From NCBI GenBank assembly GCA_963632335.1, contig CAVGUA010000109.1, forward strand, positions 21,982 through 85,981: a DNA stretch of 64,000 nucleotides, in the 5' to 3' direction. Made by a program: the position numbers and the translations under genes. The stretch comes from Parabacteroides goldsteinii (GTDB taxonomy: Bacteria; Bacillota_I; Bacilli_A; RFN20; CAG-826). Of the stretch, positions 1-37,289 are shown piece after piece (position 1 is the stretch's first letter; each line of letters begins with the position of its first letter). The notes under the pieces are model-generated. The model did no database searches. It was not told where the DNA came from and saw only the letters and a list, made by a program, of their open reading frames with translations.

Positions 1-3000
1 ATTCTAAACAACATCTTTTAACCTATCACTAAAAAACGATTTATTTTGTTGTATATCATATAAAGAATCGGATTTTTTTAATCCGAAATTTTCTGCAGCA
101 GTTTTTGCCATTACGCACCCTGCTGATTGAACTTTAGTTTTTGAAGAATCAATTTTTACAAGTTCTCCATTTAAAACAACAGTGTTTTTTCTGGAAAACT
201 ATTTGCCTGTTGGACTGATTGCCATTTTTTCATCTTCTTTGACTGCAATTAAACATTTCTAAATTAAGTCTTTGTCGAAAACTTTCTATGTTTTAAACCT
301 TTTAATTAAATCGTTTGTAAGCGCAGTCTGATCTCCTTTCTAAAGTTCATTTATCGTTAAGCTAATTACTTTTTTTGCGGCCTCAATGTCAGCTTCAGTA
401 AATTTCTTTGTGTTGAACTTGTATAAAAGATAAATAGCATCTGTATCCAGCATTGAAAGTCTTCTTGATACAACGTCCTTCTACTCTACCGTAGTAAAAA
501 AAGCATCATAATGTTGCAAATCAGACCCTTTTTTCAAATAATTGCAAACACTTAATATTTCTCCATTATTTATCTTAGTTATAAAATCACGACGATCAAT
601 TGGAGTTTCTAGATATATTCTATTTGTCTTTACAGTCTTATTGTCATCATATGATTTATATTCATACCAATTGCCACATTTTATCTGTGAATAATCAATT
701 AGATTTATTCCTTCGTCTGTAGCTCGCCATGTTGGAGTAATAGCATCGTTATTTTCAATTAATGTAAAAATTGGATTATCTCTTTCTAAAGACTATAAGT
801 ATTCAACATACCATAAAACAAGATTCTCTGTTGTATACTCAGGTGGAATGTTATTGTTTTGTTTTAAATAGGTTTTGTATTCAGTTGTATATTTGATTTT
901 GTTTAATAATTTTTCAAATAAATCTTTAGAGCCAAATTTTGACATTGCTTCTGCCTGAATATTACTATATAACCTACCATTAAAAATCTTTATATGACCT
1001 TTACTTGGATTTAATACACTTAATGAACCATCCCACTTTTGTTTAATTCCATTTTTATTTAAAAAAACTGATAACTCTTTATAAATTAAACTGCTAATAT
1101 TCGCATTATTCGTTGGGGTTTTTTCAATGAATTTGTTTAATATTTCTTTAGTAATGCCACCTTCTTTTTTTATTTCTAAAACTAAATCATTACAAATATT
1201 TTTTACCAATTCAGCCCCGTCGTTACCATGTAATATGTTGTCAGCAATAACTTTTAAAGTCGACTTTTTAAATTCAATTAATAATTTTTCTTTGTTTGTT
1301 TTAGCATTTATATATTCTGCAAATGGAATTAATATCTCCGCTATATTTGCTAAAGACATATTTGCCAATGTAGTATAAAGTTGACTTGCATATTCAGACG
1401 TATAACCACCATGCGCTGCAGCGGCAATAACCTATGTCATTAAAGAAATTTCTGCAGAATCAGCCGCATGCTCCTTGTCTAACTATATACCTGCTTCTAA
1501 TAATTTTACTTTAAAATACTAAAGCGGACTGTCATTATAATAACTATCTTTTGAATTTATATTGGCAGCACCATGTTTTATTGCGCCTGCTGTTACTATT
1601 AAATTAATATCAGAATGTTTTAATGGCTAGTAAACATCATCTTGGCTTATAATAGTTTTATTATTTCTATCAACAATCTCTCCAATTTGATTTTGTAAAT
1701 AAACAACATTTTTTATAGAGTTTTCTGATTGCACGAATACGTTTGATTCTGCACGTTCTACAGAATATTGCCTACCAAATAGGCACCATAAGTCATAATT
1801 ATTTTTAAGCCTTACATTAAAATCAACATTATTTTCAGCATCAGTGACAGAAACAACCTCTAATCCTAAAGCTTTTAATATTTCATATTTCTTTTGATTA
1901 TCAACAATATTAAACTGACTTAATACTTTACCACCAATACTTTCTTTATTTATTGCTGATTTTGCCATTGCAAAATCAATTTGGTATGTCTGTGTGTTTT
2001 TGTCAAATTTGATATTTTGTAATTTATATATACTATTACCTAGCTAAAAATAAGCCTAGCTGCATATTGTATTTACTATATTTTCTCCTAAAAAGTTTTT
2101 AGTAATATCATAATTTTTTTCTTCTCCATTCCGATCTTTCCAATTAATTTTTGTCATTTTTTTCATTAAGTTTCCGAAAAGACCAACTGAACTTCCATCT
2201 ATTATATTACCGTCACTCTTTAATATTGTAGAATTAGTTATAGCAAATCCTGCTGTTTTAATAATACCACCACAGCCTATTGATTTATGGTAAAAATGTA
2301 TAAACGGTTTTGTATTTGTACCAACAGCAGCAGAACCAAGTGAATTATTCATCTGATAAACATCAAATGGATTAGTAAAAGTCGCACCATCGTAAGGTTT
2401 AACACCGTTTTCAATACTACCATTGACATTATATAATGTATCTTTTATATCCTCAATAACAGCAATATTATAATCTTCTGATATTCCATTTAATTTATTT
2501 AGAGAAAACAATTGTTTAGATGCTGTTTCAGAAACATTACGCTTATTCTAAGCATTAAAGCGAGCAGATTCTTCATTTATAGAATTAAAGTCAACTAAAT
2601 ATTCTCCAAGTTTTGGTGGATGACTTGCATGCGAGCCAACTGTTGACAATAAGAATTCTTGACCAAACAAGAACTAAAATAAATTATAACGCTCAATTAC
2701 TGGATTTAATTTAAACTAAATGTTCTATAATTTCCCTAATGTCTAAATACAATCAGATAACGTATAATCAGCATTATTTACTTTATTATAATCAGAAAAT
2801 TCCTAAGATAAATTTTGTAAGGCATTTAAATGTTTTAATAAAACAGGCGAAATTTCCGCTTTTAAAATATCATGTAATTTTGCTACATTATTGTCTATTT
2901 CAACATTGTTTCTTATGTCTGTAATTATATTTAAAATAGACTTTGTATTATCAGACTGCTACCCCTTAAAGAAATCATAAATGTTATCAAAATTCTTTGA

Positions 3001-6000
3001 AAAGTATTCATTTATTTTTGCTTTAATTTCAGCGTTTTCAAACAAATGTATAAGATCTAATTTATTAGAAATATCAATTGTTTTGATAATATTTTGATTT
3101 TCATCAGTAAACTAAAGACGCCCTAAAACCATCTGTTTTGTAGTTTCTCTAATCCATGATTCAGACACATCACTCCAACCCGGGTTTTTGTCTTTACCAT
3201 TTAAAATTTGTTCAAGCTTTTTCAATTCATTTTTGCCTTCAACATTTGACAAGTCAATTTCAAATTGACTATCAATTAAGGATTTTAGAATTTCAATATT
3301 TTGCAGCTGCCAAAATTTAGTATCCGTCTAAAAATCATGCATCTAAACAGATTGTGTGCCATCAAATTCTATTGAAGCGTTATCAATTTCAGTCCTAAAC
3401 TGATCATTTGATGAAAAACGATATGCATTGCCTACAATTGTTCTATTCCAAGCAAGGCCTTTTATTTTTGTATATGTTGTGTTTTGATTTTCATCAATCG
3501 TCTGTACAATTCTATTTTCAGAACCATAATATACCTAGTCAATTAGAGAAAATAAATTTGTTGGATGTGCAAGATTATAATCCTTGACTATTTCTTTTAA
3601 TACACTTTCTGCACTTCTATTGCTCCCGAATTTTCTAAAAACTAAAGCATTAAAAGATCTAAAATTATCATTAAGAGGGTTGTCTATTTTTGCGAATTCA
3701 CCCCATTTCGCATCATTTTTAAATGAGCTAAACAAATTTGCAAAGTCTGTTTTTATTGTATTAAATACCTTTAAATAATAATTGCCAATTTCTGTTTTAA
3801 TAGCACTACATAGTTCATTAATAGTGCATTTATATGCCTCTTTGTTTTCTTTTGGTAATTTTAATATCTTATTTAAATCAATAATTAGTTTTGCAATTGT
3901 AGTTTTATCTGCATTTACGGATGGTAATATTGCTATTTTTCTGTTACCGACGAGTGCGGAACTTGCAACATCATCGCCCTATAAAAAACCTCCAATAAAA
4001 TCATACAAAAAGTTTGAGTAGTTATACTCGTTTACATTGAAATCAGTTGCCTTTTTAGATGTTTCTCCATTATAGTACTCTTGAATGGTATACATTCCAT
4101 TATACAAATCAAATAAACTAAAATTTTCAGCAGGAGTATCTTTACCGCAAAGCAAAGTCCATTGGTCTCTAAGTTTACCATAAAGCCTACTTGCTGAAAC
4201 GGTTGTTAAAGTACTATAATCACTCATTTTGACGCTTCTAGAAGAAAGTAAATTTTCTCTATCAAGCAAGAAAAAAGCAATATCATTTTCAAGCAAACCA
4301 GCTTTGTTCATACAAACATCAAAACCGTCAATATTATCAAGATATGCTGGTTTATATTCGTCACCGAAAAAACTTAATATTTTGCTTTTTTGAACATAAG
4401 GAGTGACCTATGTGCCATTAGTAAAATAGTTTTGAATAGCAATTACTTTTAATGCATGCATTGCATACATAAATAATGATTGACTAGCATTAGATGATAT
4501 TCGCTGTATAAAATTATTTTCAAATTCATTTGTGCTTAAATTTATTCCAAGAACATCATTTATAAAGCATACAATACTTTTTGCATTATTTTTAAAAAAA
4601 TCAGCTTTTACATTTATTTTATCATTTGATCCAATTATAATATTATTGTTTTCATCAAGTTGTATAGAAACAGTTTTTTTAGTGTTATCTATTTGAATAT
4701 TGTATTTATCTTTTAATAAAAGATATTCAGATAAACAATTTTTGTTATTAAATTTTTCTCTTATTTCTCTAACTTTATTTGATACAGCATTTGATGATAT
4801 TTCTTGAAGTATTGTTTTGCCTTGATAATCTGTATAATATTGACAATGCCTGACCGAAACTAAAGAATTAAAACTTTCACACAAATCTTCAAAATAATTT
4901 TTATTTCTATTTGTTATGTCGTTTTGTATGACATTTATGGTATAGGAATTTATATAGTCAGTAAAAGCGTATCTAACAGATTCGTTACCGTTAAATATGT
5001 ATTTATTTAACGAATTTAATGTATCGTTTACTGACTAGTCAAAATTTTTAATATTTAACTATTGGAAAATTTGATTTCTGACGTTTTTTGTTCCAATTAA
5101 ATCAAATAGAATCGGAAAATATTTTTGTGGATTCCTTGTCGCCTCTGAATAAAGCCTGCTAAATGTAAAATTGTTTGCATTTGAATTTTTGATATTACTA
5201 TCATTTGCTAAATAATCATTTAGCTCTAAAAATGTTTCGTTACCATTTTGGTCTATCAATACGGAATCTTGTCCAAAAAGCCACTTGATTGTATCTGCAT
5301 TTAAATCTTTTAATAATGTATAAAAATCAGCTTCAATACCTTGAAAAATATCCTCAAATACATTAAACAAACTTTTGTGGTTTAAATTATTATTCTAAAA
5401 CAATAAACGTATTGATTCAACAGCGGCGCATACATCATCCATTTTTAAGTATTTATTGTATTCAGATGTATATTGACTTTCTTTTGGCGTCATTTCAAGC
5501 ATTATCTTTACGCTTATGTCTGTTTCATCCATGAAATTTACATCATTATCACTAGTTCGCCATGTATCTATAATCGCATTTGATTTTTTTATTACAGAAT
5601 ATTGCTTGTTATTAAAGCTGCCATCTGTTATAGTGCCATGTTGAATTTTATTTGGCAAAACAATTTCAAGCAGACTGTCAAAATGAGTAAGCAAATGCCA
5701 TGCTACATAAGCATCATATTTTTGACTGTCTTGGCTTTTCCATAGCATTGGCTCGCCAACTTTTGCAACACCATTGCTTGCTAAGTCATCATTAAACAAA
5801 GTATTAATTGCCTTGCTATATTTTTGCATCACATTAGTATATGTATCTTCATCATATAAACGTTCAAGCATTACATCAGTATAGTTACTTTTTAAAAAAG
5901 TAACTACTTTTTGCCAAAGATTTTGTTGGTAGTTTTTTATTCTATCTGTCACTTCAGAATTATCTTCAACTCGTTTTGCAAAGCCATTTTCCCTATAAAC

Positions 6001-6480
6001 AAAGAAACATTCTCCTAATGCAAACTTCACGTCGTTTAGTATCACTGTTTGTTCTTCTGACATACCAACCAGAATGTCAGCCAAGAAATTTTTGTCAAAG
6101 TTTGTATTTAACGTTTTTGAATCAGAAATGTCATCAAGCACCTCCAATTTTTCTTTAGGTGCATTGGCTTCTTTATTTTGTTGTATAGCCTAATCACAAA
6201 GTTTTTTTATTTGTTCAGTAGTTGGGAAATGCTCTTGATAAAAAGCACTCCAATCGTCACCTGCCTTAATTACATTGTTTAAATCCTGCTCATACGATGA
6301 ATAAAACGTACCTGGATCAACAATTGCATCTGGTCTTGTTAATTCATTTTGTATTAAATTTTTATACGCAGAATAAAACATTTTTTTTGCTTCGTCTTTC
6401 GACACCTCATTGTTTTCAATATATGTAAAAACTTCAGTTAAGCCGTCAAAATCAAGAGTATTCAGTTTTATGCAATTCAT
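1..6480 (-). CDS. Giant virion/ejected-type protein, first 2,160 codons (3' end lies beyond window start); function unassigned
   Basis: Nine track fragments (793, 1627, 2056, 3535, 3979, 4408, 5059, 5395, 6190) share one frame and each ends in TAG. I read every gap triplet by triplet and found no TAA/TGA from 1 to 6480. The ATG at 6478-6480 follows the terminator T-run; the alternative ATG at 6493-6495 sits inside the hairpin. Confidence 0.8.
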
Positions 6481-6490
6481 ATATAAAAAA

Positions 6491-6522
6491 ATCATTGCCA
6501 ACAGACGTCTGTTGGCAATGAT
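6491..6522 (-). terminator. Rho-independent terminator after the 3,657-aa gene
   Basis: Perfect palindrome atcattgccaacagac/gtctgttggcaatgat about 27 nt past the TAA at 6550. On the minus strand it is followed by a T-run (plus A-run 6485-6491). Confidence 0.7.
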
Positions 6523-6549: not shown

Positions 6550-9500
6550 TTAAGAACCAAAAAAATCATTAATGGCCCGACTGCCTAAATAACAACTGTC
6601 TTTATTATTTTTCTCAGTCGATTCAGTATCTGATTTACTCTATTCAGTACCTGGCCTTTTACTAGACGGAAGCGTTACTGTCTGCTTAGTCTATTCAGTA
6701 CCTGGTATAACATTTTGTTCAGGATTATTGTTAAGTAACACATCGTTTGACGTATAAATAAAAACAATATTTCCTTCATCCGTCTTAACAAAATCACAAT
6801 CTAACTAAACTTCTTTCCCCTTTATTATTACTTTAATATTGCTACCGTTTTGTTTTAAATTATAATGATTATTTGTTTTTTTTGCCGTACCGCTAATTTC
6901 AACATCAGCAGGAAGCTTAACTATTTCAGATCCATTATCATATTTTAATGACATAACAAATAGTTCTTTCCCGTGCGTTACTAGTTTTGTGTCCTTATTT
7001 AATTCATTATATTTTATTACTAAATCTTTAGTTGTTTTTAAATTTAAACCTTGCAGATATGTTATTTCATCAGACGTTATATCTAATTTTTTATTCAACA
7101 AAATTTCCCTAAAATTTTTAGATAAAACAGCTTCTTTATTTAATGCATTTTTAGCATATCTATATTTTGTTGAATTAGATGAACGCGTCCACGAATTACC
7201 ATTTGATTGTATAATGGTATGCGTCTTTTGCTTACCTTCATCTGTTATATCAGTTTCTTTGTATGTCTGTATATCAAACAGTTCTTCACAAGCATCAATA
7301 TTTATTTGGAACAAAGGACTATTTATTTCTCCTAACATCATAAAAGACTATCCGTCAACTTGAAATCTATTATTGGCATCAACACTAACATAGAAGAAAT
7401 CATTATTGTTTTCCAATACATTTTTAGAAGTATCAGCTTTGCATCTTATTGATATATATTGTATTTTATTTTTTTGTAACGAATCAACAATAAGCTATAG
7501 ATTGTTTGATGTTTTATGAGGGATTCCTTCAATAATATTTGTTGTACCATCATGTTTTAAAAGATCTGTTTCTTCAGTTAAAAACCAATCAAATCCTTCA
7601 TTTTTTATTTTAAGCGTATCCGAATAATAAACTAAGTTTAAAAGAAGTAGTCTAAAAATCTTATAAGTATCTACAGTTGATTTTAAACCTAAAAAGTCAA
7701 ACAAATCCGTTTCTTCTTGCGATGTTAACACGACAGATAAAGCTTCATTATAAGTTTTTAAATCATCTCTTTCTTTTAACAGCGCATTTGCTTTTTGTTC
7801 GATTTTGTTTAAAAGCTCTTTTACAAGATTTATTTTATACTCACTTATTCCGTCAGAATTACAATTTGGGTCTACTTTCTGTGGATTCTATATTGCTTCT
7901 AAAAAACTTTCATCGCCCCATAATGTTTTTATTAAATGATATGCAGTGTATTTTGTGCCATAAAAAACATTGCTATTCTTTTTTTCTTTTATTGTTTTAT
8001 ACAATAATTCAATATATGCGTCAAAGTTTGTTTTAAAAGCTTCATTCTGCTATTGCATATCCATTTTTGACATATCAGCAATTGGAGAGTGTAATAAGAC
8101 AATAGAAACGCTTTTAACCATTTTAGGATTTTCTTGTTGTTTAATAAATATATTTAACAACTCTGCGGAAGAAGCGTTGCGTAAATTCGGATTCTAAGTA
8201 ACAAGAATAAACGGAGTATGATCAGGTATATTAATATCTCCAACTTTACCATTTGTACTTTTTAGACCACCAATCATAATATTTGAAACTGCCTCAAAAT
8301 TTTTAAATGTCTCATCACTTATCTCTTTTACTGTTGGGAAATAATCATTTTGAACATTATTCGTTATGCTAGTTCTTGCTTTTGAAACTACATAGCTTCC
8401 TATTGAGTGGCCATTGTTTTCATATGGACTAAACTTTTTTAATTCTATAACATAAGCTCCACCTTTGATATAGAATTTAATTAACTTGCGCAAGTTATTT
8501 AAATACTTTAAATCAGGAGTATCTAAATTTTTATTAGCCAAGAAATTATCAAGTAGTCCTACTACTTGCTATAACTTTTTTAAATCAATTTTTCCAAACC
8601 AAATTTTTTGTAACTAATCACTAAAAGATTTTAAATCACCAGTAAATTCATTTTTAAATTCATAAATTTCTGCAATTAAACTAAATGGAGACCTCAAGGT
8701 AAATATAGGTAATTCCAAAATATCACCGTCTGATTTTGTGCCAATTACAAGACTGATTGTTTTTTTTAATACACCATCTTTTTCTTCGGTTTTTCTTACA
8801 TTTAATACCTAATCATATTCTTCGCATAATAAAGTTTTTGATTCAAATGATTTTAAATCATTTGATTTTTTACTATTTACACTATCAATATATTTTTCTT
8901 TAGTGCTTACAACGTTACATGATTTAAATATCCAAGAGACTTCAAAGTCAACATTTGAAATATCAAAATCAAAGTATTTATTAAATGTTGCACTTAACCT
9001 TCTTAATAAATTTTTTTGACTTGTTGCGAACAATACATCTGAACGAAGCTAATTTAAAATTTCTAAGTATATAACTTTTTCGGTTCTCCCATTATTAACA
9101 TCTATTCCATCTTTTAATTTCCATCCTCTCTATTCTATTAGTTTTTTTAGTCCATTAACAGAATCTATACGAAAGTTCACATCCTAATCCAACATTTCAA
9201 CATTACCATTGTTGTCAAATTTAACACCTGGCACTAATGTTGTTTGTGTATAAACGGTCATAAAATTATTTTTTAACCCACCACCATGATCTTGATTTAA
9301 AAATTCATCAAAATGTGGCTACTCTAATGGTGCAAACTATATAGTAACATCATTTACTTCTTCATCATTTAGAGTGCCTGTATCAATTAAAGTTTCAGGC
9401 ACAATTGTTTTTTCAGAACCTTCTTCCAATAAATTATCAAGAAGTTTGCTTCCTTTAGATTGTGAAGTCTGAGTAGTGGTTGTTTGTGGTGGCGTCGGCT

Positions 9501-24954: not shown

Positions 24955-25275
24955 TTAATAACTAAAATTATTGTAGTTATTTTGTAATATAGATGTATTA
25001 TTAAAAATCTACCTATTTATATTGTTTTGCAATTTTGCGTACTATTTCGCTTTTTCAAACATCTCTACACGCTAATCCTCTTTTTGTTTAATTAAACTTT
25101 TTGCATTTAAACCACTAGTAATTCCGTTTATAATACTGCTGCCAATTTTTAAAAAATTACCACCAAATGTACTTTGATTATTCTGTTCCTTTTTTCTTGA
25201 CTAAAGTTTGTCTGATATATTATCAAACGGGTTTGTCACACTTAAATATGGTTTTTTTGAAGATAAATATTCCAT
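24955..25275 (-). CDS. 106-aa hypothetical protein
   Basis: ATG at 25273-25275, 1 nt after the upstream TAA. Four in-frame TAG, then TAA at 24955-24957. It fills what would otherwise be a 350-nt gap. Confidence 0.6.
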
Positions 25276-25276
25276 T

Positions 25277-26491: not shown

Positions 26492-26510
26492 GCTAACATT
26501 AATAAAAATT

Positions 26511-26548
26511 TTAAGGAGTGTCTTTTGTTTTGAAAAGACACTCCTTAA
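26511..26548 (-). terminator. Rho-independent terminator after the 2,242-aa gene
   Basis: 16-bp perfect stem ttaaggagtgtctttt/aaaagacactccttaa with a 6-nt loop, 33 nt past the TAA at 26581. T-rich tail on the minus strand. Confidence 0.7.
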
Positions 26549-26580
26549 AATTAAGTATTTTTAATCGTTTATTAAATCCA

Positions 26581-29500
26581 TTAGACATCAAAAGTTGTTT
26601 GTATCGCTTTTAATAACACTAATTTATCCCCTGTCCAACGTAGTTTAACATCCATGTAATTATCTAATAATGGTACATTTTTCTTGCCATTATAATATGT
26701 ACCCCAAGAGGACAAGTCAAGTTGTGAAGTGTCCTTATAAAACGCATAAACATCGCTAGGGACAAATCGTTGAAGACTAGTATTATCGCCTCTTTCATTT
26801 GCGTTAATTACCTTTTCACCGATTCCATTTGTTAACAAAGATTCATTAATTTTTTTGTCGCTTAAAAATATTTTACCATCATTATTACCAACAGTAATTT
26901 TTAATGGATTAAAATCCTCTGGTACAGGTGCATTGCCAATACTGATTGGAGGGACAATGTGACTTGAATCTTTATTATACCAAGAATCAATATCCTCATT
27001 TTTCTGATAAATATTCAAGGGCTAAATCTGTATTGCCCAATAACCATTAGTAAACTATGCGTTACCTCTTGTCCTGCCAACTTCTTCAATGTCTCGTATT
27101 AACTAGTGATTGCATAATTTAAACGAATCTTCTTGCTTGTTAAACACAACTTCACCACCTGAATAATCTTGATAATTAATGTTGTTATTATGATTAACAG
27201 CTTTTTTATAAAAATCTTCAATTTCATTAAACGTGTCTTGTTTAGAATAAACCAATGGTAACATTGTAGCTTTGTAATAATTTGACTATGCAACTTTATT
27301 CCTTAAATAATTATTATCATCTGCTTTTTCAAGGAAATCACTAGCCAAAATTGGCTTTACGTTAGTCATAAAATCACTATCCTAAAATGGCGTATGATCG
27401 TATAAAATATCAGATCCATTTTGTTGATAGAAAGCCTTGGTTGCTTCTTGTCTTAAATACATGTTCCTCTTGTCTTTTGAGAAATCATATAAATCGCCAT
27501 TTATCGTCATATGTACTGATTCTGGTTTGACATTATTTGAGAATACCATTAAATTCTAAAAACGTTTTAAAGTGCCATCTTCTGCGCCAACAATAAAGTT
27601 TATTTCAAAAGGATGCTGTTTACCATACCATAAACACGGTTTTATTTTTTCAACATCATCAATTAATCCTGCTTGACCGTGCTTCCAAAAATCAGTTCTT
27701 AACTTTGGATAAACAGCAGAGAATCTTTCTGTATAAGACTTCTAATTCGTTAAATTATAGATATTTGAAACGCCATTTGCTAATGAGACAAATGCTAATA
27801 CAGTTGGCGTGTTTCCAGTGAGAATGCAAGAACCAGAAGCAAATTCAACTTCCTTTAAAGATGTGACCTCTGAAAATGTTAAACATAATTGAGTTTCAAA
27901 ATATCCAGCATTATAACTAACATATTTTTCTGAACGTTTTACGTCATAACTACCAATTGACGTTGCGTTAACATCAACCGCATTCATTTCGCATTTAATA
28001 CATAACTATATTACTGGCTTCTGAGGCTCTTCCTTTAGCATCTTATATCTAAGTTTAACAACATTGTCTTTTTCGATATATAAATAAGATGCTCCATAAT
28101 CAAAAAATCCTTCTTTATGCCCAACGCCATCTGTCTAATCGGATTCTTCAATATTTGAATTTGTAAAGAAATATTTAAAGTTTCCGAAATTATCTCTCTC
28201 TACAGAAAATTTATATTTTACCCAAACGTCTTTGCCTGTTGGAAAATATTTGTTTTGCAGATATAATGGCGTTCTGTAGCAATTTATAGATTTGTCACCT
28301 TCTTTTATTATGCATTCTTCCCATTTGTCAATTAAAACGGATTTAACACAAGTTCCACGGGCGTCCGTGTCAAATTCATCAAACTCATCAAAATAAGAGA
28401 ATGACTATGCTGTAGTGTTTGAAATTTTTGGCTATGTAACTGTATCCGCAATACTCATTCCTAAATTAGCAATCCACTTTGAAGCATTTCTATCATAACT
28501 AAAATAAATATTATGAATATTTTCAGACCAACTAGGAATCCAAGAATAGAATGTGGTAAATTTCCCCAACTATTCATTATAACATAAATTCCACGTCTTT
28601 TCCTCAAAACCTATTGTATTATCATAATAAGTAAACATTACATCGCCTTTATAAGCATTGTAATGCGTCTTAACATTTCTTACGCCAATAATAGTTTCTG
28701 TTTCACGCTCTTCAAGCGTAATGTTTTCATTTAAGAATTTTTGAACTTTAAAGTCAGAAATAAGTTTAAATCCAGATGAAGAAACTTGCCATATCTTTTT
28801 ACCAACTGTATCAACTCCATAAACGGCATTATTTGTTACACAAACGCTTTCTGGCCATTGTGTCCCAAAGTCGGTAGAATACATCTATATTTCAGACAGT
28901 ACACTTGCAACCCCAAGTTTTAACTATAAATCTTTCTCGTTACTACTATTAAATAGAGCTTGCTAGTTTACGGCTATTCTTCCAATACCGTGCTCAAATA
29001 CAGCTATTAACTAATTACCAAATTCTACAAGTCTCATCAAACCACCATATTGTAATGGATAATCCTTATAAGCTGTAGACTAAAATTCTCTAAAACCATT
29101 CCTAAAAGCATCAGTTGATGCTTGTACTGAATAGGCAATTCTAGTCTAAAAATTATTTTTTAAATACGGAACATTTGTATTTGTAAAATATGTTTTTTGT
29201 CCCGTTGAAGAACTGAAGCCTTGATTGTAGCATTGAGATTCTGGTACTTTATGATTGCCAGCAACTGAAATTTCTTGGAATGGATAAAAACCACGAGGAA
29301 TCCCACAAGCTGCATATTCAGTAGAATAAGTTGAATCAATATCACGATAACAAAGATTCATTGAACTTCTAATCGGGAACGTTATCCAGAGACCTAATTT
29401 TACCGCATTTATATCTCCTCTATTAACATCTGCATGATCAGACGTTCCTTTCCAATTGTTTTTCCAAGTGTTTTTATCAACTATAATATCATTATATTGC

Positions 29501-32500
29501 GCATCAGGGTCGTTGAAGTTTCTATTAAGTCTATGAGTGAAATTACTGATATAGCAGTCGCCTCTAAATACAGCTATTACACTATCATTCATTGTTCTTG
29601 TGTTTCCTCTAGAATCAGTATAACTTAATGAACTACACCTATTTGTATAATCATGATATTCAACTCGGTCGGTAACAGCATAATATGGAGATTGATCGTT
29701 GAAGCGTATTTTAAATTTAGTAAAATCACTAGTTGATTCATTGCCTGGAACATAAATATTTACAATTTCAGACGGTAATAAATTCTTATTCCCAGACATC
29801 CCCAAGTAAGCACCAAATGAACCACGAATAATAGCAGAATTTAACGGAGTATAACCTTTTGGTGTGCTATCTCCAAATATTGCTTTTGCTCCAGACGCAA
29901 CACCTTGCATTATACCTGCTGTGGCAGCACCAGTTGCAACTGCAACCCCAAGTGTTAATGCTGTTGCAGCAACTGTTGAACCAACAGCTGTAGCAACGCC
30001 ACCTATTGTTGTTATTGCTCCAATTGCAGAAACTGCACCACCAATGCTTATTGGTGCAGCTGCACCCCAAGTACAAACTGTTACTGCTACTGCAGCTGCA
30101 ACTGTGACAGCAATTGAGACAATTTTGAGCCATTTTTTAAATTTTGACTTTTTCTTTTTGAAAGATACATAATTATCTTTTGTCGGTATTTTATATCTTT
30201 CTTTAGGTACACAAGAAACAAAAGAAATATCTTCTGCTTCTCCGCATCTTGCACGGAAGTTATGTCCATTATTTCGTATAAGTGGAGTGTTGTCTGGGAT
30301 TGAAATTATATGTAATTGCTCTAAAATATCTTTTGTTGGTTTTTTCCAGCAATTATTCCATGAGCAAAACATGAATCTATCATTGTTTTCATCGCAAATC
30401 ATTCTTAATTGGTCTGTAACATTTTTTACAGGGAATTTTCCTCCGCTAAAAATTGAATTATAATATGACTAGTTTAATTCAAATTCGGGACAAAATGCAG
30501 TTAATGTTTCAGTACTTGGCTCATCTAGTAGTTTTTCAGTAAATTCTGTTGAAGTATATGATTTTTTTGTTTTAGTAGGCCATGATATTAATTGTGGATT
30601 AACATCCGCGTCATCTAAATCTTCATCGTCATTTACTGGCAAACTAGCATCAGTCTTCAAAAATGTTTCAGTGCAATAAAGAGCAGGTTGAGATGTATAG
30701 TCATTTGCGTGGTTTATTCTAATAATAGGAGTTCCAGAAACATCATCAAAACCTTCCGTAAAAGCCTGTGCTAATATTGTTGGTATTCTTTTTTGACGCA
30801 CAATAAAATGTCCTTTTATATGATGCTTTTCTCTTAACTCCTTAATAACATCATCTCCAACCTTTATTGCTAAACCATATATCACTGGATTGCCAAATTC
30901 AAATTGTTCAACTGATTGTTCTCTGTATTCTCCACTTGCTTTATTGACATTTGTACTGCTGGATTCATAATCCCATTGTTCCTCTGTAGACTTCCTTTTT
31001 ACAGCAATCTAATCAGAAGGAAAACGAACAACGCCAGCTGAATTTTCTAGTGTCAATTTGTTTATCCAATTAGTATCATAATCAATAGTAAACGTATCGC
31101 GTTCTGTATATGGATTATTATTAGAACATATCGCTATTTTCCCTGTTTTGTCAGCAATTTTAACTGTATCTGGCTGCTTGTCCCATTCTGTTGAATAAAA
31201 AGGAGAAGGTGTGTTTGTGGTGACCATCACGTCTTCAATATTGGTTAACTCTCCAATACCTCTTATATTAAAAACAGGTGTTAAGCTACCATCGTCCATT
31301 ATATAAACAACACCAAACCGATACATCTCTTCTGGCCAATAACCAACATAATTGTATACGCTTGATGCATTATAATACCCTCCTATACCATAAGCATCTT
31401 CACCATCGTATTGTGGATAGCCAACTAAAGCATCACATGAAAGAACTTGATAAAATGGCAAGAACTCAAGACTGAGTTTTTGTAATTCGTCATAATCAAT
31501 TTTAGGCTTTGTGGCATTGCCAAGGAATAACATGTTTTGACACTGAGCTTGTGTTTTTACCCTACTAAAAATTTGATGTTCTGAAAGTATCTCGTCTTTT
31601 GCGGCTACTTCAGTTGTTTCAGTTCCTGTGATTATAAATGAGCAGCTCTATGACAATATTCTATATTTGTCTAATATTTTATGATATGTGACATTTCCTT
31701 CAGCACCAGAAGCATTGCTGCTTCTTGAATAATATATAGAAAGATAATCATATGCTGTATCAATATTTGATACAGTTAAATTAATACCTTTGTATGAATT
31801 TTCGTCAAGCTGTCCTCCTCTAATTGTTTGTGGACTATTTATATTTCCAATATAAACAGGTATACATCCAGTTTCGGCGATAACATCAGTTTCATTTCCG
31901 TCAGCGTCAGCCAACTTGAAATAAAACGTATACATTCCAACTTTTAATTGACCACCATATGTTAATCCATTGAATGTTATAACAGGTATGTGTTTATATC
32001 GTTTATTTAAAGACGTGTCAAGATCAAACTCATCACTATCATACAAATTTGTATCTGTATTTCCCTTTCTATCAACACGTTCATAAGTATTTAATTCTAA
32101 AGGAGTAAATCTGGTATTTATTAATCTTGGAATATTTTTATTATCATTTAAGATAAGGTTTGTTGAACCATCATAAGACTATTGACATTCTATTTCAACA
32201 GGATGCCTTAAATCAAAATCTAAAACATCTGTTTCTCCATTGCCTCCTGTTATTAAATCTTCTATAATTCCATCCTCTTCAAAAACAAGGGGATAAATGT
32301 CACTTGTTACATGTTTTAGGCCTACAATATTTCCATCACTATCATATTTCCTATGAGCATTGTCAAGGCATTTGTAGTATTTACCATTACGAGTAAAATG
32401 ATAAGCTGACTCTTCCGAAACTTCAGTCACGATTTTGTTTGCAGAAGCATATAAGTCTAAAATACCAACACCATATTTATATTCATCAGATACACTTGTG

Positions 32501-33309
32501 TTTGTCAAAACAGTGCTATCAGAAAAATCATCAGTGGCATCACCTGCAGGAGTGCTGTATTTATAATTGCTTACAATAAATTTTGTATCAACGTTTTTAT
32601 ATTCTGTTTTTAAAACAGAAACTAGTTTTATGTCGAGACTGCCAACGTTACTTATCAAACCTGTTGCATTGATAAATACTATATTATCGGTATAATCAAT
32701 TGTTTTACCTGAACTGTCTTTTGTTGGCAGTTCATCTTTAGAACCAGATAACGACATTGCAAGTTGTCTACAGAGTTCCTACACTGAACCGCAATTAGAA
32801 AAACATGAAGAAACAGGAATGTTTTTTAAATCTATTTCTGTCTCACCATCACTCCAAGTTGTGTTATTGACGTAATATTTTACATTTGTTGTTTCTGAAT
32901 TACTATCAGCTTCTACACTACTGACTTTAGATGTTGTGACAAGAGGTCCAATAGTTTTCTATTGAGAATCAAAACTAATGCTTGTTATACCTGAAAAACC
33001 AAGATTCTCTAAAAGGGTTTTAAATGAACGAGAAAGCTAAACAGAATAAGTTACTTTACTGATTGTTGTTACTTGTTTGGTTATTGAACTAGAAGCCGCT
33101 TCAATTAAACCTGCCTCTAGCACATTGTTAATAGCACCGTTATTCCAAATGACAACATTAGTCAATATATTCCTATCTGCAGACAAATAGTTGCCTTCGG
33201 AATCCTTTAAATACTAATTACCTTTTCTAAAATTATATAATGGATTGTACTCCCAGGCCATTGACCCTTTATTTTTTATACATTGTGTTGCGTATTTTAT
33301 TCGCGTCAT
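26581..33309 (-). CDS. 2,242-aa tail-associated protein with an internal 87-aa Ala/Gly/Val/Thr hydrophobic segment
   Basis: Fragments 26581 (TAA), 27742, 28570, 29146, 30469, 31009, 31648 and 32179 share one frame; all but the first end in TAG. Every gap was checked. The ATG at 33307-33309 is 2 nt after the upstream TAA. Confidence 0.8.
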
Positions 33310-33311
33310 AT

Positions 33312-36300
33312 TTATTTTATTATGTAAAAATTAGAGTCTGCTGGGCCGATGCCAGCTTCATATCTATGATCCATATCAGTGGCAAATGAAAATAAACATT
33401 GATAACCTCTTTCTGAAGAAGTTGAAGGATGATCATGCAACCAAGTGCCTGTATACCAATAATTTCTACAATAAATTTCGTTTTTGCCAGCAACAATAGA
33501 ATAGTCTTTGCCTATAAAACCAACATATTTTTCTGTAGTAAAATTACTTGTATTAGAGCTAATCTCTTTCCACGGCAATACTTCATACGTTGGATCATTA
33601 GTTGAAATTTTAGTTGTAGCCCCTTTCATATAAACGGGTACGTATTCACTATTATCATCAACCCATTTAAAATCTGCTTTTGATAATAATGTGTCTACAA
33701 ATGTATTGCTTCTAATTCCTGTATAGATACAATTATTGTTTAATGTAGGTTCACCAACGTTAAATGATAATATATCAGAATTGTTAGAAGCCACGAAATA
33801 ACCCGATCTTGATATAACTGTATTTTTATCAACCATTACGTCGCTGTAATTTTCGCTAATATCCAATTGAGAATATGGCTCTTCAATTGTAACAACACTT
33901 TCTTTATTACAAGCAAAAGATATTTTATAAGCATCAAAAGTATTGGCACTTATGCCTTTGTAGTAGAAACAATTATCAATATCATAATTAACTGTTATAG
34001 TATTTATCACTGTATGACTTTTTGTAATATCTTCTATTGCAATGTTTTGAATTTTTGAAGTTTGCTGTATTGAATTAACATTGCTTGTTAACGTATGATT
34101 ATTTTTTAATTCTGTTAAAAATGTAGTTATCCTGCTATCTTCTGAAGAACCTATATATTTACTATATGGCGGCATTTCACGGTCTTCTACATCTATTTTG
34201 TAGGTGCCTGACCCATATCCGTATAAAGTGCCATAGTCATAGCCATTAAAGGCTGATTTTTCCTAATATAGACTTGGAAAAATGATATTTGTAGGCGAAT
34301 ATCCATTTTGAGTTTGTACAGCCAAAATACTAACACAATATGAACCTAATAGCTTAAAATCGTCAGTTTTAATATCACAAACTTTCATGTGCCCTAAAAA
34401 AGCAAGCATTGGAAGTTGTGGCTCTGTTTTTAATAAATTGCTAGTAGCCAAATAACTATTTGGAATTAAATACGAGAAAGTATCTTTTGTTCTACTCTCG
34501 CTTGCTTTTTTATATGCACTTACTTGCAAATTGTCTTTTAATAGCTCATATTCACCATATAAATTTTCCAAACAAAAAACAGTTTTTGTCCTACCATCTT
34601 GTTTCCTTCCTCCAGATGAATCAAAAAAACAAGCAAACATTTTATCTGTTGTTGTTTGTTTTGGCAAAACATGATAACTTCTATTACTTGATATTAAACT
34701 TATATATTCGTTTCCTGTATCGTTTGTTATATAATTAATTTCACCATTATTTGTAATACTGTATTTATAAGAAACTGTTTTTTTGAATTTTAAATCACTT
34801 ACTTTATTCCATGTAATTAAATTGTCAGGGTCATCCGTTTTTATCCCACCACTAGGTATGCTAAATTTCGCCTAGCTATTTTTAATAGAGAATAAATTCA
34901 ATATACTTTCGTCAAATGTAAATGTAAATTCGGCATTGTATGTTTTTGTTGCAGTATATTCAGCCGTACCTTTAGCAATATCATCAATGTCAGGAATATC
35001 CATTGATTCACACTTTGTTTGTAAAACAGAATTAACCTTTGGAGTAAAAACTAAAGTTTTTGAATCGGTAGTTATATCACCCTCTTTAGTGTCTCCGTCA
35101 CGAATGAATGTGTCTGTTGAATTATATAACGAATTTCCATCTGGTACAGTAATTATTACAAACACATCACTATTACTTGTTGTGACTGTTGAATTATTTG
35201 ACATTGTTTTGTCAACTGAGATCCACGCATAATAAATACTATCCAAACTTAATGTAGTGCCATAATTTTCAGTTTCTTTTGGCTGAAGATATATTCCATC
35301 AACAAACGATGAATTATAATTATTACGTGAAGTTAATGTTTTCGTTATATGATATTTTGCATAATCACCAGTTAAATATTTTGATATATTTTCACAATTG
35401 CTTGGGTTTTTTTCTGCTGCGGTGTATTTACTACAGATTTTATTCCAACCATAGTAATCAACACAATGTAATGTTACGTTGCTAATAAATTGCTTGTTTT
35501 TTAGATATGTTTGCAATTGGTATTTTAACAAAAGCTATCCATAATCAGTTGCGTCTTCAATATAATATTGAATTGACTAAAACAAAATTTTGCCTGAATT
35601 TAGCCACGCCAAATTAAAACTTCCTTTTGTTGTTAACTAACTCAACCAGCCATTATTAAAGTTTTCATGTGTTGTATCTGAGATTCTATAGTATGGTGTG
35701 ATTTCATAATTTAAATAAGCTTTTGCATCAGACAAACTTGCAATAGTTTCTTCTGTTTTTATGCCATCTGGCCAACCTATTTTAAAATTGAAAACCTTTT
35801 CATAGCTATCATACGCTTCCTTGTCATCATTATCAATCGTAACATCCTTATCAGAAATTAATTCAATTGATTCATAGTTATTGCCTTGTTCTGCTGGCGA
35901 AATCTTTATCTTATAAGTATTTATTGCAATATTTGCATATTTCTTTATGAAAGAATAACGAATAAAATAAGCCGATGCGGTATTAACAGGATTAATTAGC
36001 CAATAATATTCAGCGTTTGCCTGTTTGCCAGTGACCTACCCTTCAACTTGGCTCATTAATGCTTCTTTGCCAATTTCTCGTTCTGTGCCAATAGAACAGT
36101 CTTCATACAAATATATGTCTTGATATGGCTTACTACTTGCGTCCTTTATTTCATATACTAAACAATCATCTGTAAAAATTATTGGTTGGTTATATAAATT
36201 TAATGTATAATATGTGAGCAAGTTGATTCCCATTGAACACTCAGAAGGAAGGTCAACTCCTTGTATATTAACAAAGGTAGGCTCCATAACTCCTTCTATA

Positions 36301-37289
36301 AAACTTGACAAAATATCAGGAGTGTTTAGCGTAAAAATCAAATATAAATCACCAACAATTTTATTTTTATAAATATTCCAAATAATATCCTTAGTATCAG
36401 TTACATCCTTCATATTAATAAAGGACTGATAATAAATATCACTATGTGTTTTATTGTTTGAATCCACATAATCACATTGACACCAGCTATAGAAGTCATA
36501 GGTGCAAGTATTTACATTAGGTGGCGTGTTTGTCCAATTCTTTTTATAAGTGATTTTATTATCGCCTGAAAGTTCAGTTATATTATACCAATATTGAGAA
36601 GCTAAGGCATTTAATGCAATGTTTGTCAAGTTGCCAGATGCATCAATAACCGCCACATCCATTTTTAAACTTCCTCTTTGAAGCCAAATCATTAAATTGT
36701 CAATAACATATTCTGTATTGTCATCAGGAATATGTATTGAAAATTTATCACCAGGTCGAATTGTATCAGCAAGCATTATTTTCTAAGTTAAAGAATCTAT
36801 TGTGGCTTCTCTTATATAACTATATTCTTTAACTACTGAACTATCATCATTTCCTACGTATTTTGAATAAACTATATTATCAGCACCAAATTCAATATTA
36901 GTGCTTGCTGATTCATATTTTTGCTCGCTTTTGTATGACTAAGTAAAATTTTCCAATTTTTTTACCGAGGAGCCATTTTCGTCACTGCTCACATTTCTTT
37001 CTGGACTAGGGAAACACCCAATCTAACTCTATTTTGTTAATGGATTATGGCTTGCAACATAAACAATTCCTCCAAACTCCTTCATTCCTACAGGCACAAA
37101 TCCAGCTGGCAAATAAGCAGATTCCACACGTCCATTGCCCATGTCGTTTTGCAAAATAAACTCATTGCCATCCATTGTGATTGTTGTAGCATTTAAGGCT
37201 CCTGCAAGTTCCGTTTTTGACATTGCAATTGGATTTTTGTCAAGCACCATGCCCTCTTGCCATTGATTTATCGACGTTTGTCTTGCCAT
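33312..37289 (-). CDS. 1,325-aa tail/receptor-binding-type protein
   Basis: Fragments 33312 (TAA), 34263, 34872, 36036 and 37029 share one frame. Gaps were checked. ATG at 37287-37289 with an in-frame TAA upstream. Confidence 0.8.

What the first reader, a model, noticed from the sequence alone, without database searches (positions are those of the whole stretch)
1..37289. 37-kb train of eight co-oriented genes dominated by five giant proteins
Seen: from 37289 down to 1 the genes encode 1,325, 2,242, 404, 106, 1,818, 646, 3,657 and >2,160 aa. Spacers are 0-90 nt and there are only two internal terminators (26511, 6491). More than half of the window therefore encodes five polypeptides.
Established: crAss-like phages (phi14:2 gp66, crAss001 gp47/49/50) place giant ejected proteins, one of them a two-DPBB RNA polymerase with a DxDGD-type motif, downstream of the tail genes.
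Inference: the RNA polymerase is probably among these genes or just beyond position 1. I did not find a DxDGD motif in the parts I translated, so the assignment stays open.
Basis: partly seen in the sequence, partly recalled or inferred. Interest (0 to 1): 0.65.

Follow-up and report, generated by a model that had tools for sequence, protein, structure and literature searches.

The report
CrAss-like phage giant virion-protein block
This is the tail-to-RNA-polymerase gene block of a large (~156 kb) crAss-like gut phage that reads TAG as glutamine; the last, cut-off giant gene is the phage's virion RNA polymerase, so the finding is real but belongs to an already described kind.

Summary
With TAG read as Gln, the minus strand from 37289 to 1 holds eight genes of exactly the stated sizes. 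Five giants fill 52% of the window.

The truncated gene (1-6480) is the N-terminal two thirds of a 3,200-3,900-aa protein family (blastp E=1e-121 to full-length members; 1,545 clusters). Members carry GSD[FLY]D[IVG]D about 235-270 residues past the point where the window ends.

- An AlphaFold model of that region in a homologue (pLDDT 81) has phi14:2 gp66 (6VR4) as its only Foldseek PDB hit at E<=0.001, followed by bacterial RNAP beta' chains.
- Profile-profile comparison with classical crAss RNAPs gives E=1e-13 for the catalytic part. It gives E=1e-5 for window residues 1614-1832 against gp66's first-barrel end plus Connector.
- The 2242-aa protein is the Tstab/muzzle homologue. The 3657-aa protein contains an SF1-helicase-like domain. 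The other giants are lineage-specific.

Gene order matches phi14:2 and crAss001. The catalytic motif itself lies outside the window and could not be read.

The parts
33312..37289 (-). 1325-aa protein with 10 in-frame TAG. It is the first gene of the train. It is a lineage-specific putative tail or hub protein lying between the Ttub-side genes and the Tstab homologue.
   Evidence: Gene call. The orthologue in MT835470 is 1143 aa; the N-terminal 360 aa are 32% identical. There are no PHROG, Pfam or crAss001/phi14:2 matches.
26581..33309 (-). 2242-aa homologue of the crAss tail-stabilisation ('muzzle') protein (crAss001 gp44, phi14:2 g071). It is enlarged and carries a 75-aa Gly/Ala-rich hydrophobic stretch at aa 1058-1134 (nt 29908-30138).
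   Evidence: phrog_28748 at E=5.5e-23, the same PHROG as crAss001 gp44 at 4e-99. phmmer against phi14:2 g071 gives E=9.3e-11 in two collinear blocks. Hydrophobic segment.
26507..26552 (.). Perfect 20-bp-stem hairpin in the 89-nt spacer after the Tstab gene. It is terminator-like on both strands.
25277..26491 (-). 404-aa protein, Gly/Ala/Ser-rich at the N-terminus. Putative internal or ejected virion protein, judged by position.
   Evidence: Gene call. The C-terminal 110 aa are 47% identical to the MT835470 568-aa protein. No family match.
24955..25275 (-). 106-aa small protein of unknown function.
   Evidence: Gene call. No matches.
19467..24923 (-). 1818-aa giant with hydrophobic Gly-rich segments at aa 621-696 (nt 22836-23063) and a Gln/Asn/Ala-rich, probably helical, C-terminus (composition read by eye). 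Putative cargo or ejection protein.
   Evidence: (orthologue MT 1554 aa). No PHROG or Pfam match.
17523..19463 (-). 646-aa protein of unknown function, conserved in MT835470 (610 aa).
   Evidence: E=3e-22.
6550..17523 (-). 3657-aa giant. It has an N-terminal conserved region with a hydrophobic segment (aa 330-358). A long Lys/Asn/Glu-rich, low-GC, possibly coiled-coil middle follows. It carries an SF1-helicase-like P-loop domain at aa ~2082-2400 (nt ~10318-11280). Motifs: Walker A GLAGTGKT at 2089, LIVFDE at 2196, GDFNQ at 2228, TRG at 2399.
   Evidence: Pfam AAA_30 at E=1.3e-6 (28.7 bits, cut-off 27) and Viral_helicase1 at 22.8 bits (cut-off 21). The MT835470 orthologue shows the same domains. 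Motif positions. The C-terminal half has no detectable homologues.
6491..6522 (-). 14-bp-stem hairpin followed by a T-run, immediately upstream of the RNAP start codon. It is an intrinsic-terminator-like site between the 3657-aa gene and the RNAP gene.
1..6480 (-). The N-terminal ~2160 aa of the virion RNA polymerase. The probable start is the Met at 6480, and about 1,050-1,350 aa are missing beyond position 1. The most conserved core is aa ~1255-1840 (nt 961-2718).
   Evidence: blastp to full-length homologues reaches E=1e-121. Family size and lengths. Fold and profile evidence.
985..1641 (-). RNAP residues 1614-1832. These align to phi14:2 gp66 residues ~1044-1249, which are the end of the first (beta-like) barrel plus the Connector domain.
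   Evidence: hhalign Prob 82.6%, E=9.6e-6, collinear with the catalytic-region hit. gp66 domain limits are from bioRxiv 10.1101/2020.03.07.982082.
51191..51886 (-). 231-aa tail tubular/ring protein (Ttub, P22 gp4-like).
   Evidence: phmmer against phi14:2 g072 gives E=3.5e-6. PF24228 CrAss_Ring_1 is weak here but recorded on the identical protein in public contigs.

Best explanation
The region is the distal part of the late (virion) gene module of a crAss-like podophage. The phage has a genome of about 156 kb and translates TAG as glutamine.

In transcription order the genes are:
1. A lineage-specific 1325-aa tail protein.
2. An enlarged homologue of the tail-stabilisation/muzzle protein (2242 aa).
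3. Four proteins of 404, 106, 1818 and 646 aa. They occupy the position of the internal 'cargo' proteins of phi14:2 and crAss001.
4. A 3657-aa giant with an SF1-helicase-like domain.
5. The virion RNA polymerase, of which the window holds the first ~2160 of about 3,200-3,500 residues.

Shown:
- TAG is recoded to Gln.
- The gene structure is as described.
- The 2242-aa protein is homologous to Tstab, and the 231-aa protein to Ttub.
- The last gene belongs to a large family whose catalytic region has the GSDFDID-type Mg-binding motif and the fold of phi14:2 gp66.
- Window residues 1614-1832 are homologous to the first-barrel end and Connector of gp66.

Inferred by analogy with phi14:2 and crAss001:
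- These proteins are packaged in the capsid or tail and ejected with the DNA.
- The hydrophobic Gly-rich segments help form the trans-envelope conduit.
- The polymerase then transcribes early genes independently of the host RNAP.

The two hairpins (26507-26552 and 6491-6522) probably attenuate transcription, so that the cargo genes and the RNAP gene are expressed at lower levels than the tail genes.
For: Recoding and genes.

crAss-like identity:
- The portal matches phrog_6547 at 2e-53, and its nearest annotated relatives are crAss portals.
- Crass_capsid and CrAss_Ring_1 are recorded on the identical proteins in 156-kb ENA contigs.
- Ttub and Tstab homology.
- Synteny with phi14:2 (g072 Ttub, g071, g070-g067, g066 RNAP, all MS-verified virion proteins) and with crAss001 gp43-gp50.

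RNAP:
- 15 homologues, most 3,213-3,526 aa; blastp E down to 1e-121.
- 11 of the 15 carry LQGSD[FLY]DID.
- 125 of 162 collected family members carry GSDxDxD, including GSDFDGD and GSDFDVD.
- The deep profile search found 1,545 clusters.
- AF2 model of homologue P0076: pLDDT 81.2, pTM 0.75.
- Foldseek against PDB: 6VR4_A at E=3.9e-5, prob 1.00, the only hit at E<=1e-3, followed by dozens of RNAP beta' chains.
- BFVD: 23 hits at E<=1e-3, mostly crAss-like phage proteins, including the phi14:2 protein and a 'Putative RNA polymerase' of cr111_1.
- hhalign against a 10-sequence crAss RNAP core: Prob 98.1%, E=1.1e-13, plus a second collinear block inside the window at Prob 82.6%, E=9.6e-6.

Literature:
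- A 'transcription gene block' of several large proteins, TAG recoding of late genes, and disruption of RNAP ORFs at DxDxD in the Zeta group are described in PMC7886860.
Against: - The catalytic DxDxD motif is not in the window. No D-x-D-G-D and no convincing D-x-D-x-D occurs in any of the eight proteins, so catalytic competence in this phage is inferred from homologues.
- In relatives the RNAP is often split at the motif, so the gene here might also be interrupted beyond position 1.
- Sequence-to-sequence and profile-to-sequence searches do not link the family to gp66 or gp50.
- Foldseek TM-scores are low (0.25). The model is of a homologue (P0076) that overlaps only about the last 75 residues of the window protein.
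- The motif match for the beta-like barrel proper (DGATFxNPF / IIKTAGF against TDAQxYxTP / KNAEF) is not significant (E=0.16).
- Virion packaging and ejection are untested. Five of the eight proteins have no detectable homologue in characterised crAss phages.
Confidence: 0.85

Rival explanations
1. The truncated gene is an RNAP-family protein, but in this phage it is split, intron-interrupted or catalytically dead. The window would then hold only a non-catalytic 'N-terminal subunit'. The polymerase would have to be assembled from pieces or spliced.
For: - In MT835470 the homologue reads LQGSDY, then a ~1.06-kb insertion with a LAGLIDADG-type ORF, then DIDKAY.
- Many family members are ~1,000-aa proteins that begin at profile positions 314-358, at the motif.
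- P0001, P0014 and P0015 lack the motif.
- Yutin et al. report disruptions within DxDxD in the Zeta group.
- This phage does carry a group I intron in its capsid gene.
Against: - The 2160 codons in the window are uninterrupted and align along their length to single-chain homologues of 3,200-3,500 aa.
- Most family members are single-chain with an intact motif.
- An intron at the motif would still give a functional enzyme after splicing.
Confidence: 0.25
2. The giants are purely structural proteins (tail fibres, tape-measure-like or decoration proteins) with no role in transcription. The resemblance of the last gene to RNAPs would then be a distant fold relic.
For: - Five of the eight proteins have no family assignment.
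- PHROG labels the only hit 'virion structural protein'.
- Low-complexity and possibly coiled-coil stretches and hydrophobic Gly-rich segments are common in structural or ejection proteins.
Against: - The metal-binding heptad GSDFDID is conserved across hundreds of clusters and is identical to that of gp66, where each Asp is essential.
- Fold and profile hits are specific to RNAPs.
- An SF1 helicase domain with intact Walker A/B motifs sits in the neighbouring giant.
Confidence: 0.05
3. The giant polymerase-sized gene is an N4-like (Schitoviridae) virion RNAP of the T7 single-subunit type.
For: N4-like phages also package a ~3,500-aa RNAP together with ejection proteins (PMC13434306, listed), and the size is similar.
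Against: - Foldseek gives two-barrel RNAPs only. No T7-like polymerase appears among the top 50 listed hits.
- The portal, capsid, Ttub and Tstab proteins are crAss-type.
- There are no Pfam hits for T7-like RNAP domains.
Confidence: 0.01

Closest known systems
Cellulophaga phage phi14:2 gp66 (PDB 6VR4), virion-packaged two-barrel DNA-dependent RNA polymerase
   Same: - Both carry the GSDFDID-type catalytic heptad, in homologues of the window protein.
- It is the best and only significant PDB fold match.
- Profile-profile comparison gives E=1e-13 for the catalytic part and E=1e-5 for the first-barrel end plus Connector.
- It holds the same genomic place, downstream of Ttub/Tstab and mid-size virion proteins and in the same orientation.
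   Different: - The window's family is 3,200-3,900 aa, against 2,180 aa for gp66.
- About 1,600 residues precede the aligned block, against ~1,040 in gp66.
- About 430-600 extra residues sit between the Connector and the DFDID barrel.
- Sequence identity is about 14%, and HMM-to-sequence searches fail.
- The motif context is LQGSDFDIDAVS rather than TGSDFDIDKMY.
Bacteroides phage crAss001 gp43-gp50 (tail tubular, muzzle gp44, gp45/gp46, 'RNAP subunits' gp47, gp49, gp50)
   Same: - The order Ttub, Tstab, membrane-active or cargo proteins, giants, RNAP is the same.
- gp44 and the window's 2242-aa protein share phrog_28748.
- gp50 carries GSDFDVD.
   Different: - In crAss001, gp49 and gp50 are on the opposite strand to gp44-gp47. 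Here all genes are co-oriented.
- No sequence similarity was detected between the window's 404/106/1818/646/3657-aa proteins and gp45-gp49.
- The window has two extra genes (322 and 1325 aa) plus the portal-fibre module between Ttub and Tstab.
Zeta-group crAss-like phages (Yutin et al. 2021, PMC7886860)
   Same: - Human-gut origin.
- A genome of about 156 kb, within the 145-192 kb reported for this group.
- TAG recoding.
- A group I intron in the capsid gene.
- A transcription gene block is present.
- In relatives the RNAP is disrupted inside DxDxD by a LAGLIDADG element.
   Different: Group membership was not tested by TerL phylogeny, because TerL is not in the window. The closest GenBank record, MT835470.1, uses the standard code and has a different module order.
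Neurospora QDE-1 and cellular multisubunit RNAP beta'/beta
   Same: The catalytic region has a two-barrel architecture. Bacterial beta' chains fill Foldseek ranks 2-50.
   Different: The window's enzyme is a single giant chain, putatively delivered in the virion. The E-values for cellular RNAPs are only 3e-3 to 3e-2.

Membership tests
crAss-like virion RNA polymerase (gp66 family) | DFDxD Mg-binding motif in the beta'-like double-psi beta-barrel | not testable with these tools
   The motif is absent from the 2160 residues in the window. It is expected 235-270 residues beyond position 1. It is present in 11 of 15 close homologues and 125 of 162 family members. The contig could not be extended.
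crAss-like virion RNA polymerase (gp66 family) | Two-barrel fold similar to 6VR4 / QDE-1 | tested here: met
   The test was done on family member P0076, not on the window protein. The AF2 model has pLDDT 81. 6VR4 is the top and only PDB hit at E<=1e-3. crAss RNAPs dominate the BFVD hits.
crAss-like virion RNA polymerase (gp66 family) | Homology of the window-encoded part to gp66 (first barrel and Connector) | tested here: met
   hhalign aligns window residues 1614-1832 to gp66 1044-1249 at Prob 82.6%, E=9.6e-6, collinear with the E=1e-13 catalytic block.
crAss-like virion RNA polymerase (gp66 family) | Sequence signature of the beta-like barrel proper | tested here: inconclusive
   The motifs line up in the right order (DGATFxNPF / KPFxHFY / IIKTAGF against TDAQxYxTP / QPxKxxYY / KNAEFVLIP). 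The restricted profile comparison gives only E=0.16.
crAss-like virion RNA polymerase (gp66 family) | Location downstream of Ttub/Tstab in the virion module | tested here: met
crAss-like virion RNA polymerase (gp66 family) | Packaged in the virion and ejected; transcribes early genes | not testable with these tools
   Known for phi14:2 only. Testing it here needs virion proteomics and infection experiments.
crAss-like phages (Crassvirales and allied groups) | crAss-type portal, major capsid protein, Ttub and Tstab in one structural block | tested here: met
   Portal. Crass_capsid on the 330-aa exon-1 product. Ttub and Tstab. TerL and IHF were not examined, and TerL is not in the window.
Zeta group of crAss-like phages (Yutin 2021) | Genome of 145-192 kb, stop-codon recoding, many introns, transcription block present | tested here: met
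   156-kb contigs; TAG read as Gln; group I intron with a GIY-YIG ORF in the capsid gene; RNAP block present (this report).
Zeta group of crAss-like phages (Yutin 2021) | Placement in the Zeta clade of the TerL tree | not tested
   TerL lies outside the window, and no Zeta reference genomes were fetched.
N4-like virion RNAP (T7-type single-subunit) | T7-like palm/fingers catalytic fold | tested here: not met
   Foldseek returns only two-barrel RNAPs among its top hits. There are no Pfam hits.
SF1 helicase (domain in the 3657-aa protein) | Walker A, Walker B (DE), motif III (GDxxQ) and a RecA-like domain 1A | tested here: met
   AAA_30 at 28.7 bits (cut-off 27) and Viral_helicase1 at 22.8 bits (cut-off 21). 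Motifs GLAGTGKT, LIVFDE and GDFNQ located. The MT835470 orthologue shows the same.
SF1 helicase (domain in the 3657-aa protein) | Second RecA-like domain (2A) with motifs V/VI | tested here: inconclusive
   No Pfam hit for a C-terminal helicase domain. Only a TRG tripeptide at aa 2399 could correspond to motif VI.

The most novel reading that the evidence does not exclude
The 3657-aa giant encoded immediately upstream of the polymerase may be a co-packaged, co-ejected SF1 helicase that unwinds the incoming phage DNA and hands single-stranded template to the virion RNAP. This would explain how crAss-type virion polymerases start on double-stranded genomes. In vitro, gp66 transcribes ssDNA efficiently but dsDNA poorly, and its eukaryotic relative QDE-1 needs the helicase QDE-3. 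In this lineage the polymerase itself has also grown by more than 1,000 residues, including a ~430-600-aa module inserted between the Connector and the catalytic barrel. That module could dock such a partner.
Probability: 0.15. Interest if true: 0.7.

Novelty: new member of a known kind. Interest (0 to 1): 0.35.

Why it matters
This confirms that a very abundant but almost unannotated protein family is the virion RNA polymerase of the large-genome, TAG-recoded crAss-like gut phages. The family has about 1,500 clusters at 50% identity, and its members listed with annotation carry no Pfam domains or source names. The report supplies a usable gene map for this recoded block.

It also marks two testable features of the lineage. 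One is an SF1-helicase-bearing giant next to the polymerase. The other is a recurrent split of the polymerase exactly at the catalytic aspartates. Both bear on the open question of how ejected two-barrel polymerases are delivered and how they start transcription on double-stranded DNA. For annotation pipelines, it shows that without code 15 more than half of this window would be called as junk fragments.

Tried and rejected
- Megablast of 20 kb of the region against 50,697 phage records found no match.
- Motif scans for DxDGD and DxDxD in all eight proteins, and in the MT835470 giants, found nothing credible. An 'SDYDLDV' in the MT835470 983-aa protein was a false lead: the true motif there is split by an insertion.
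- PHROG and Pfam scans gave no hit for most giants.
- phmmer and a family profile against PDB sequences gave no hit to 6VR4.
- Whole-profile hhalign against single gp50 found nothing. A deep HMM against the crAss001 proteome found nothing.
- hhalign against a low-diversity gp50 alignment gave only weak collinear hits, E 1e-3 to 4e-2. A diverse template was needed.
- The first AF2 model (8-sequence MSA) had pLDDT 58.6, with the motif region below 50. Its Foldseek search gave only noise.
- A homology search with crAss001 gp50 listed only relatives at 68% identity or more, of little use for a profile.
- Extending the contig failed. An exact 47-mer and a 31-mer were absent from IMG/VR and JGI contigs. 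The search for related loci found nothing in either collection. TAG-bounded fragments are not on record.
- The homology search with the full 3657-aa protein timed out. Its C-terminal 1,384 aa found no homologues.
- tblastn of the other giants against ten crAss transcription-block loci found no hits.
- A region-restricted test for the beta-like barrel was not significant, E=0.16.
- ARAGORN found no tRNA in the window, so the suppressor tRNA must lie elsewhere.


Full report
**1. The observation**

Under the standard bacterial code the window contains only short ORFs, the longest 418 aa. Reading TAG as sense, but not TGA or TAA, produces ten minus-strand frames of 400 aa or more.

They carry 4-60 in-frame TAGs each, and all complete genes end in TAA.

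The amino acid is glutamine. At 80 TAG positions in well-aligned context, standard-code orthologues have Q in 34 (42% against a 4.4% background).

Spacers within the train run from -1 to 89 nt. The five giants occupy 52.5% of the window.

The first ATG of the last gene lies inside the hairpin stem. Homologues begin MxKC, so the true start is probably the Met at 6480.

Minus-strand genes continue upstream to 64000, giving 95% coding. No tRNA is present in the window.

**2. What phage this is**

- The portal (47709-49916; phrog_6547, 2e-53) has crAss-like phage portals as its nearest annotated relatives, at about 23% identity. Three unannotated human-gut 'Bacteriophage sp.' records are closer, at 51-58%.
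- One of them, MT835470.1 (117 kb, standard code), has a collinear orthologue for seven of the eight genes; only the 106-aa gene lacks one.
- A TAG-free window protein (54572-55411) occurs identically on ENA contigs of 156,337 and 156,061 bp. The public gene calls there use the recoded frame. They carry PF23898 Crass_capsid on the 330-aa product and CrAss_Ring_1 on the 231-aa product.
- The 231-aa protein matches phi14:2 g072, the P22 gp4-like tail tubular protein, at E=3.5e-6. The 2242-aa protein matches phi14:2 g071 at E=9.3e-11. It also falls in phrog_28748, the PHROG of crAss001 gp44, the tail-stabilisation protein.
- Several features fit the Zeta group of Yutin et al. (PMC7886860): a 156-kb genome, TAG recoding, a group I intron in the capsid gene, and a transcription block.
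- I did not test Zeta membership by TerL phylogeny.

**3. The RNA polymerase**

The truncated protein has no Pfam, PHROG or PDB sequence match.

A homology search found 15 relatives, none with a name or a Pfam domain. Twelve of them are 3,213-3,526 aa long. Eleven carry LQGSD[FLY]DID[ATC]V at residues ~2100-2440.

blastp aligns the window protein along its length to these relatives, with E down to 1e-121. Its last 60 residues align to P0002 residues 2119-2178, P0004 2111-2170 and P0006 2108-2167. The motif in those proteins is at 2440, 2432 and 2429. The catalytic loop is therefore expected 235-270 codons beyond position 1, and about 1,050-1,350 residues are missing.

A profile of the catalytic region was searched against 1.84 billion representative proteins. 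It found 1,545 clusters at E<=1e-3 and 631 at E<=1e-30, mostly 3,100-3,900 aa. Of 162 collected members, 125 have GSDxDxD, including the cellular-type GSDFDGD and the crAss001-type GSDFDVD. Classical crAss polymerases read [TQ]G[SAF]DFD[IV]D[KS], and phi14:2 gp66 reads TGSDFDIDK. In gp66 each Asp of 1361-DFDID-1365 is essential.

**4. Linking the family to gp66**

HMM-to-sequence methods fail. This fits the statement that crAss RNAPs are 'extremely divergent'.

A first AlphaFold model with 8 sequences was poor. A 35-sequence MSA led by the 702-aa family member P0076 gave pLDDT 81.2 and pTM 0.75.

- Foldseek against the PDB returned 6VR4_A ('Virion-packaged DNA-dependent RNA polymerase of crAss-like phage phi14:2') as the top hit, with E=3.9e-5, prob 1.00 and 500 aligned columns. 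It was the only hit at E<=1e-3. Dozens of bacterial RNAP beta' chains followed.
- Against BFVD, 23 hits reached E<=1e-3. They were mostly crAss-like phage proteins, including the phi14:2 protein and a 'Putative RNA polymerase' of cr111_1.
- The poor first model gave only noise, so it served as an informal negative control.

I then built a diverse crAss RNAP core alignment from gp66, gp50, DAC15, Dulem virus 41, Fpv1, crAss002, Rudgehvirus, LMMB and cr10_1. hhalign of the 71-sequence family alignment, with the window protein as master, gave two collinear blocks:

| Block | Prob | E-value | Location |
|---|---|---|---|
| Catalytic region | 98.1% | 1.1e-13 | Beyond the window |
| Window residues 1614-1832 against gp66 ~1044-1249 | 82.6% | 9.6e-6 | nt 985-1641 |

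The second block corresponds to the end of the first barrel plus the Connector, gp66 residues 1095-1238.

So the window encodes the N-terminal region, probably the beta-like barrel, and the Connector. The beta'-like barrel lies beyond position 1. The motif match for the beta-like barrel proper has the right order but is not significant.

Compared with gp66, this family has about 600 more residues before the aligned block. It also has about 430-600 extra residues between the Connector and the DFDID barrel.

**5. The other giants**

- The 3657-aa protein has an SF1-helicase-like P-loop domain at aa ~2082-2400. AAA_30 scores 28.7 bits against a cut-off of 27, and Viral_helicase1 scores 22.8 against 21. 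GLAGTGKT, LIVFDE and GDFNQ motifs are present, and the MT835470 orthologue shows the same domain. Its N-terminal ~1,000 aa are conserved with MT835470. Its C-terminal 1,384 aa have no detectable homologues.
- Hydrophobic Gly/Ala-rich segments occur in the 2242-aa (aa 1058-1134), 1818-aa (621-696) and 3657-aa (330-358) proteins, but not in the RNAP.
- The 1325-, 404-, 106-, 1818- and 646-aa proteins have no PHROG or Pfam hit and no significant crAss001 or phi14:2 match.
- By position they correspond to phi14:2 g070-g067 (593, 420, 579 and 1797 aa), all MS-verified virion proteins, and to crAss001 gp45-gp47.

**6. Mechanism**

Shown: gene structure, recoding, homology of Tstab, Ttub and the RNAP, and the presence of the helicase domain.

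Inferred by analogy with phi14:2, whose gp66 is translocated with the DNA and makes early transcripts:

- The block encodes the tail tip plus internal proteins, which are packaged and ejected.
- The hydrophobic segments help form the conduit across the cell envelope.
- The polymerase starts the infection programme.
- The hairpins after the Tstab gene and before the RNAP gene may lower expression of the low-copy cargo proteins.

More speculative: gp66 transcribes ssDNA well but dsDNA poorly, and QDE-1 depends on a helicase. The adjacent helicase-bearing giant could be the polymerase's template-opening partner.

**7. Limits**

The catalytic loop of this phage was not seen, because I could not extend the contig.

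In relatives the gene is often split exactly at the motif. In MT835470 a ~1.06-kb insertion with a LAGLIDADG-type ORF separates LQGSDY from DIDKAY. Many ~1,000-aa family members start at the motif, matching Yutin et al.. The same could be true just beyond position 1.

**8. Verdict**

The feature is the known 'transcription gene block' of crAss-like phages, in a large-genome, TAG-recoded lineage. It is a new member of a known kind and of moderate interest.

Noticed in passing
window 55511-58090 (minus strand): The major capsid gene is split. Exon 1 runs ~58090-57131 (aa 1-~322 of the MT835470 orthologue) and exon 2 runs 55954-55511 (aa 325-472). Between them lie an Rfam group I intron core (56922-57131, 52.5 bits) and a 304-aa ORF (56010-56924) with an N-terminus that looks GIY-YIG-like and NUMOD-type Pfam hints.
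   Followed up: partly
window 38333-39454 (plus strand): This is the only opposite-strand island in the window. It holds a 95-aa Cys-rich ORF and a 276-aa ORF with 7 in-frame TAGs. The 276-aa ORF is 37% identical to an MT835470 protein that sits elsewhere in that genome (108 kb). That MT835470 orthologue weakly matches crAss001 gp47 residues 1700-1849, a segment that hits phrog_298 'exonuclease'. It may be a PD-(D/E)XK-type nuclease cassette.
   Followed up: partly
window 39805-51191: Module order differs from relatives. Here the portal and the fibre genes lie between the Ttub gene (51191-51886) and the 322/1325/Tstab genes. The fibre genes include an 846-aa protein with collagen-like G-x-x repeats at 44197-46737. 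In MT835470, phi14:2 and crAss001 the portal lies upstream of the capsid gene.
   Followed up: no
L001 ~21960-23030 (MT835470.1 41963-43025): In the closest GenBank relative the RNAP gene is interrupted exactly inside the catalytic motif. It reads LQGSDY, then a ~1.06-kb insertion encoding a LAGLIDADG-type protein (LLGDG...YMDDG), then DIDKAY. In the deep search many ~1,000-aa family members begin at the same profile position, so the split recurs.
   Followed up: partly
window 6480-6522: The first ATG of the RNAP ORF (6495) lies within the stem of the terminator-like hairpin, and the T-run follows it. The second Met (6480, MNCIKLN) matches the MxKC start of homologues, so the RNAP gene starts directly after a terminator-like structure.
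   Followed up: partly
window 10000-14000: GC content drops to 24-26% inside the 3657-aa gene, against 29-34% on either side. The dip coincides with a long Lys/Asn/Glu-rich, possibly coiled-coil middle region that is not conserved in MT835470.
   Followed up: no
whole window: In-frame TAG is used in most predicted minus-strand genes (33 of 37), including the small genes at 59-64 kb at up to 6 per 100 codons. No suppressor tRNA is in these 64 kb, so it must lie elsewhere in the ~156-kb genome.
   Followed up: partly
window 50229-51191: A 320-aa protein lies between the Ttub and portal genes. It has weak lysozyme or glucosaminidase-like signals (phrog_3513 endolysin at 2e-4; PF01832 weak on the public gene call). 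It shows a short similarity to phi14:2 g067 and to a 981-aa MT835470 protein, so it may be a virion-associated cell-wall hydrolase.
   Followed up: no
L008, L009, L010, L011, L012 (Fpv1, crAss002, Rudgehvirus, LMMB, cr10_1): Several other crAss-like and related phages annotate RNAP-containing polypeptides of ~4,070-4,460 aa. Some BFVD or GenBank entries matching the RNAP region are named 'DNA helicase'. This hints that helicase-RNAP fusions may exist in other groups, whereas here the helicase domain is in a separate neighbouring giant.
   Followed up: no
L001 12003-18988 (MT835470.1 32003-38988): Downstream of the RNAP in MT835470 lie two more co-oriented large genes (804 and 1523 aa). The 1523-aa protein has a weak Cas4/PD-(D/E)XK-like PHROG hit and a weak match to crAss001 gp49. 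The window's train therefore probably continues beyond position 1 past the RNAP.
   Followed up: no
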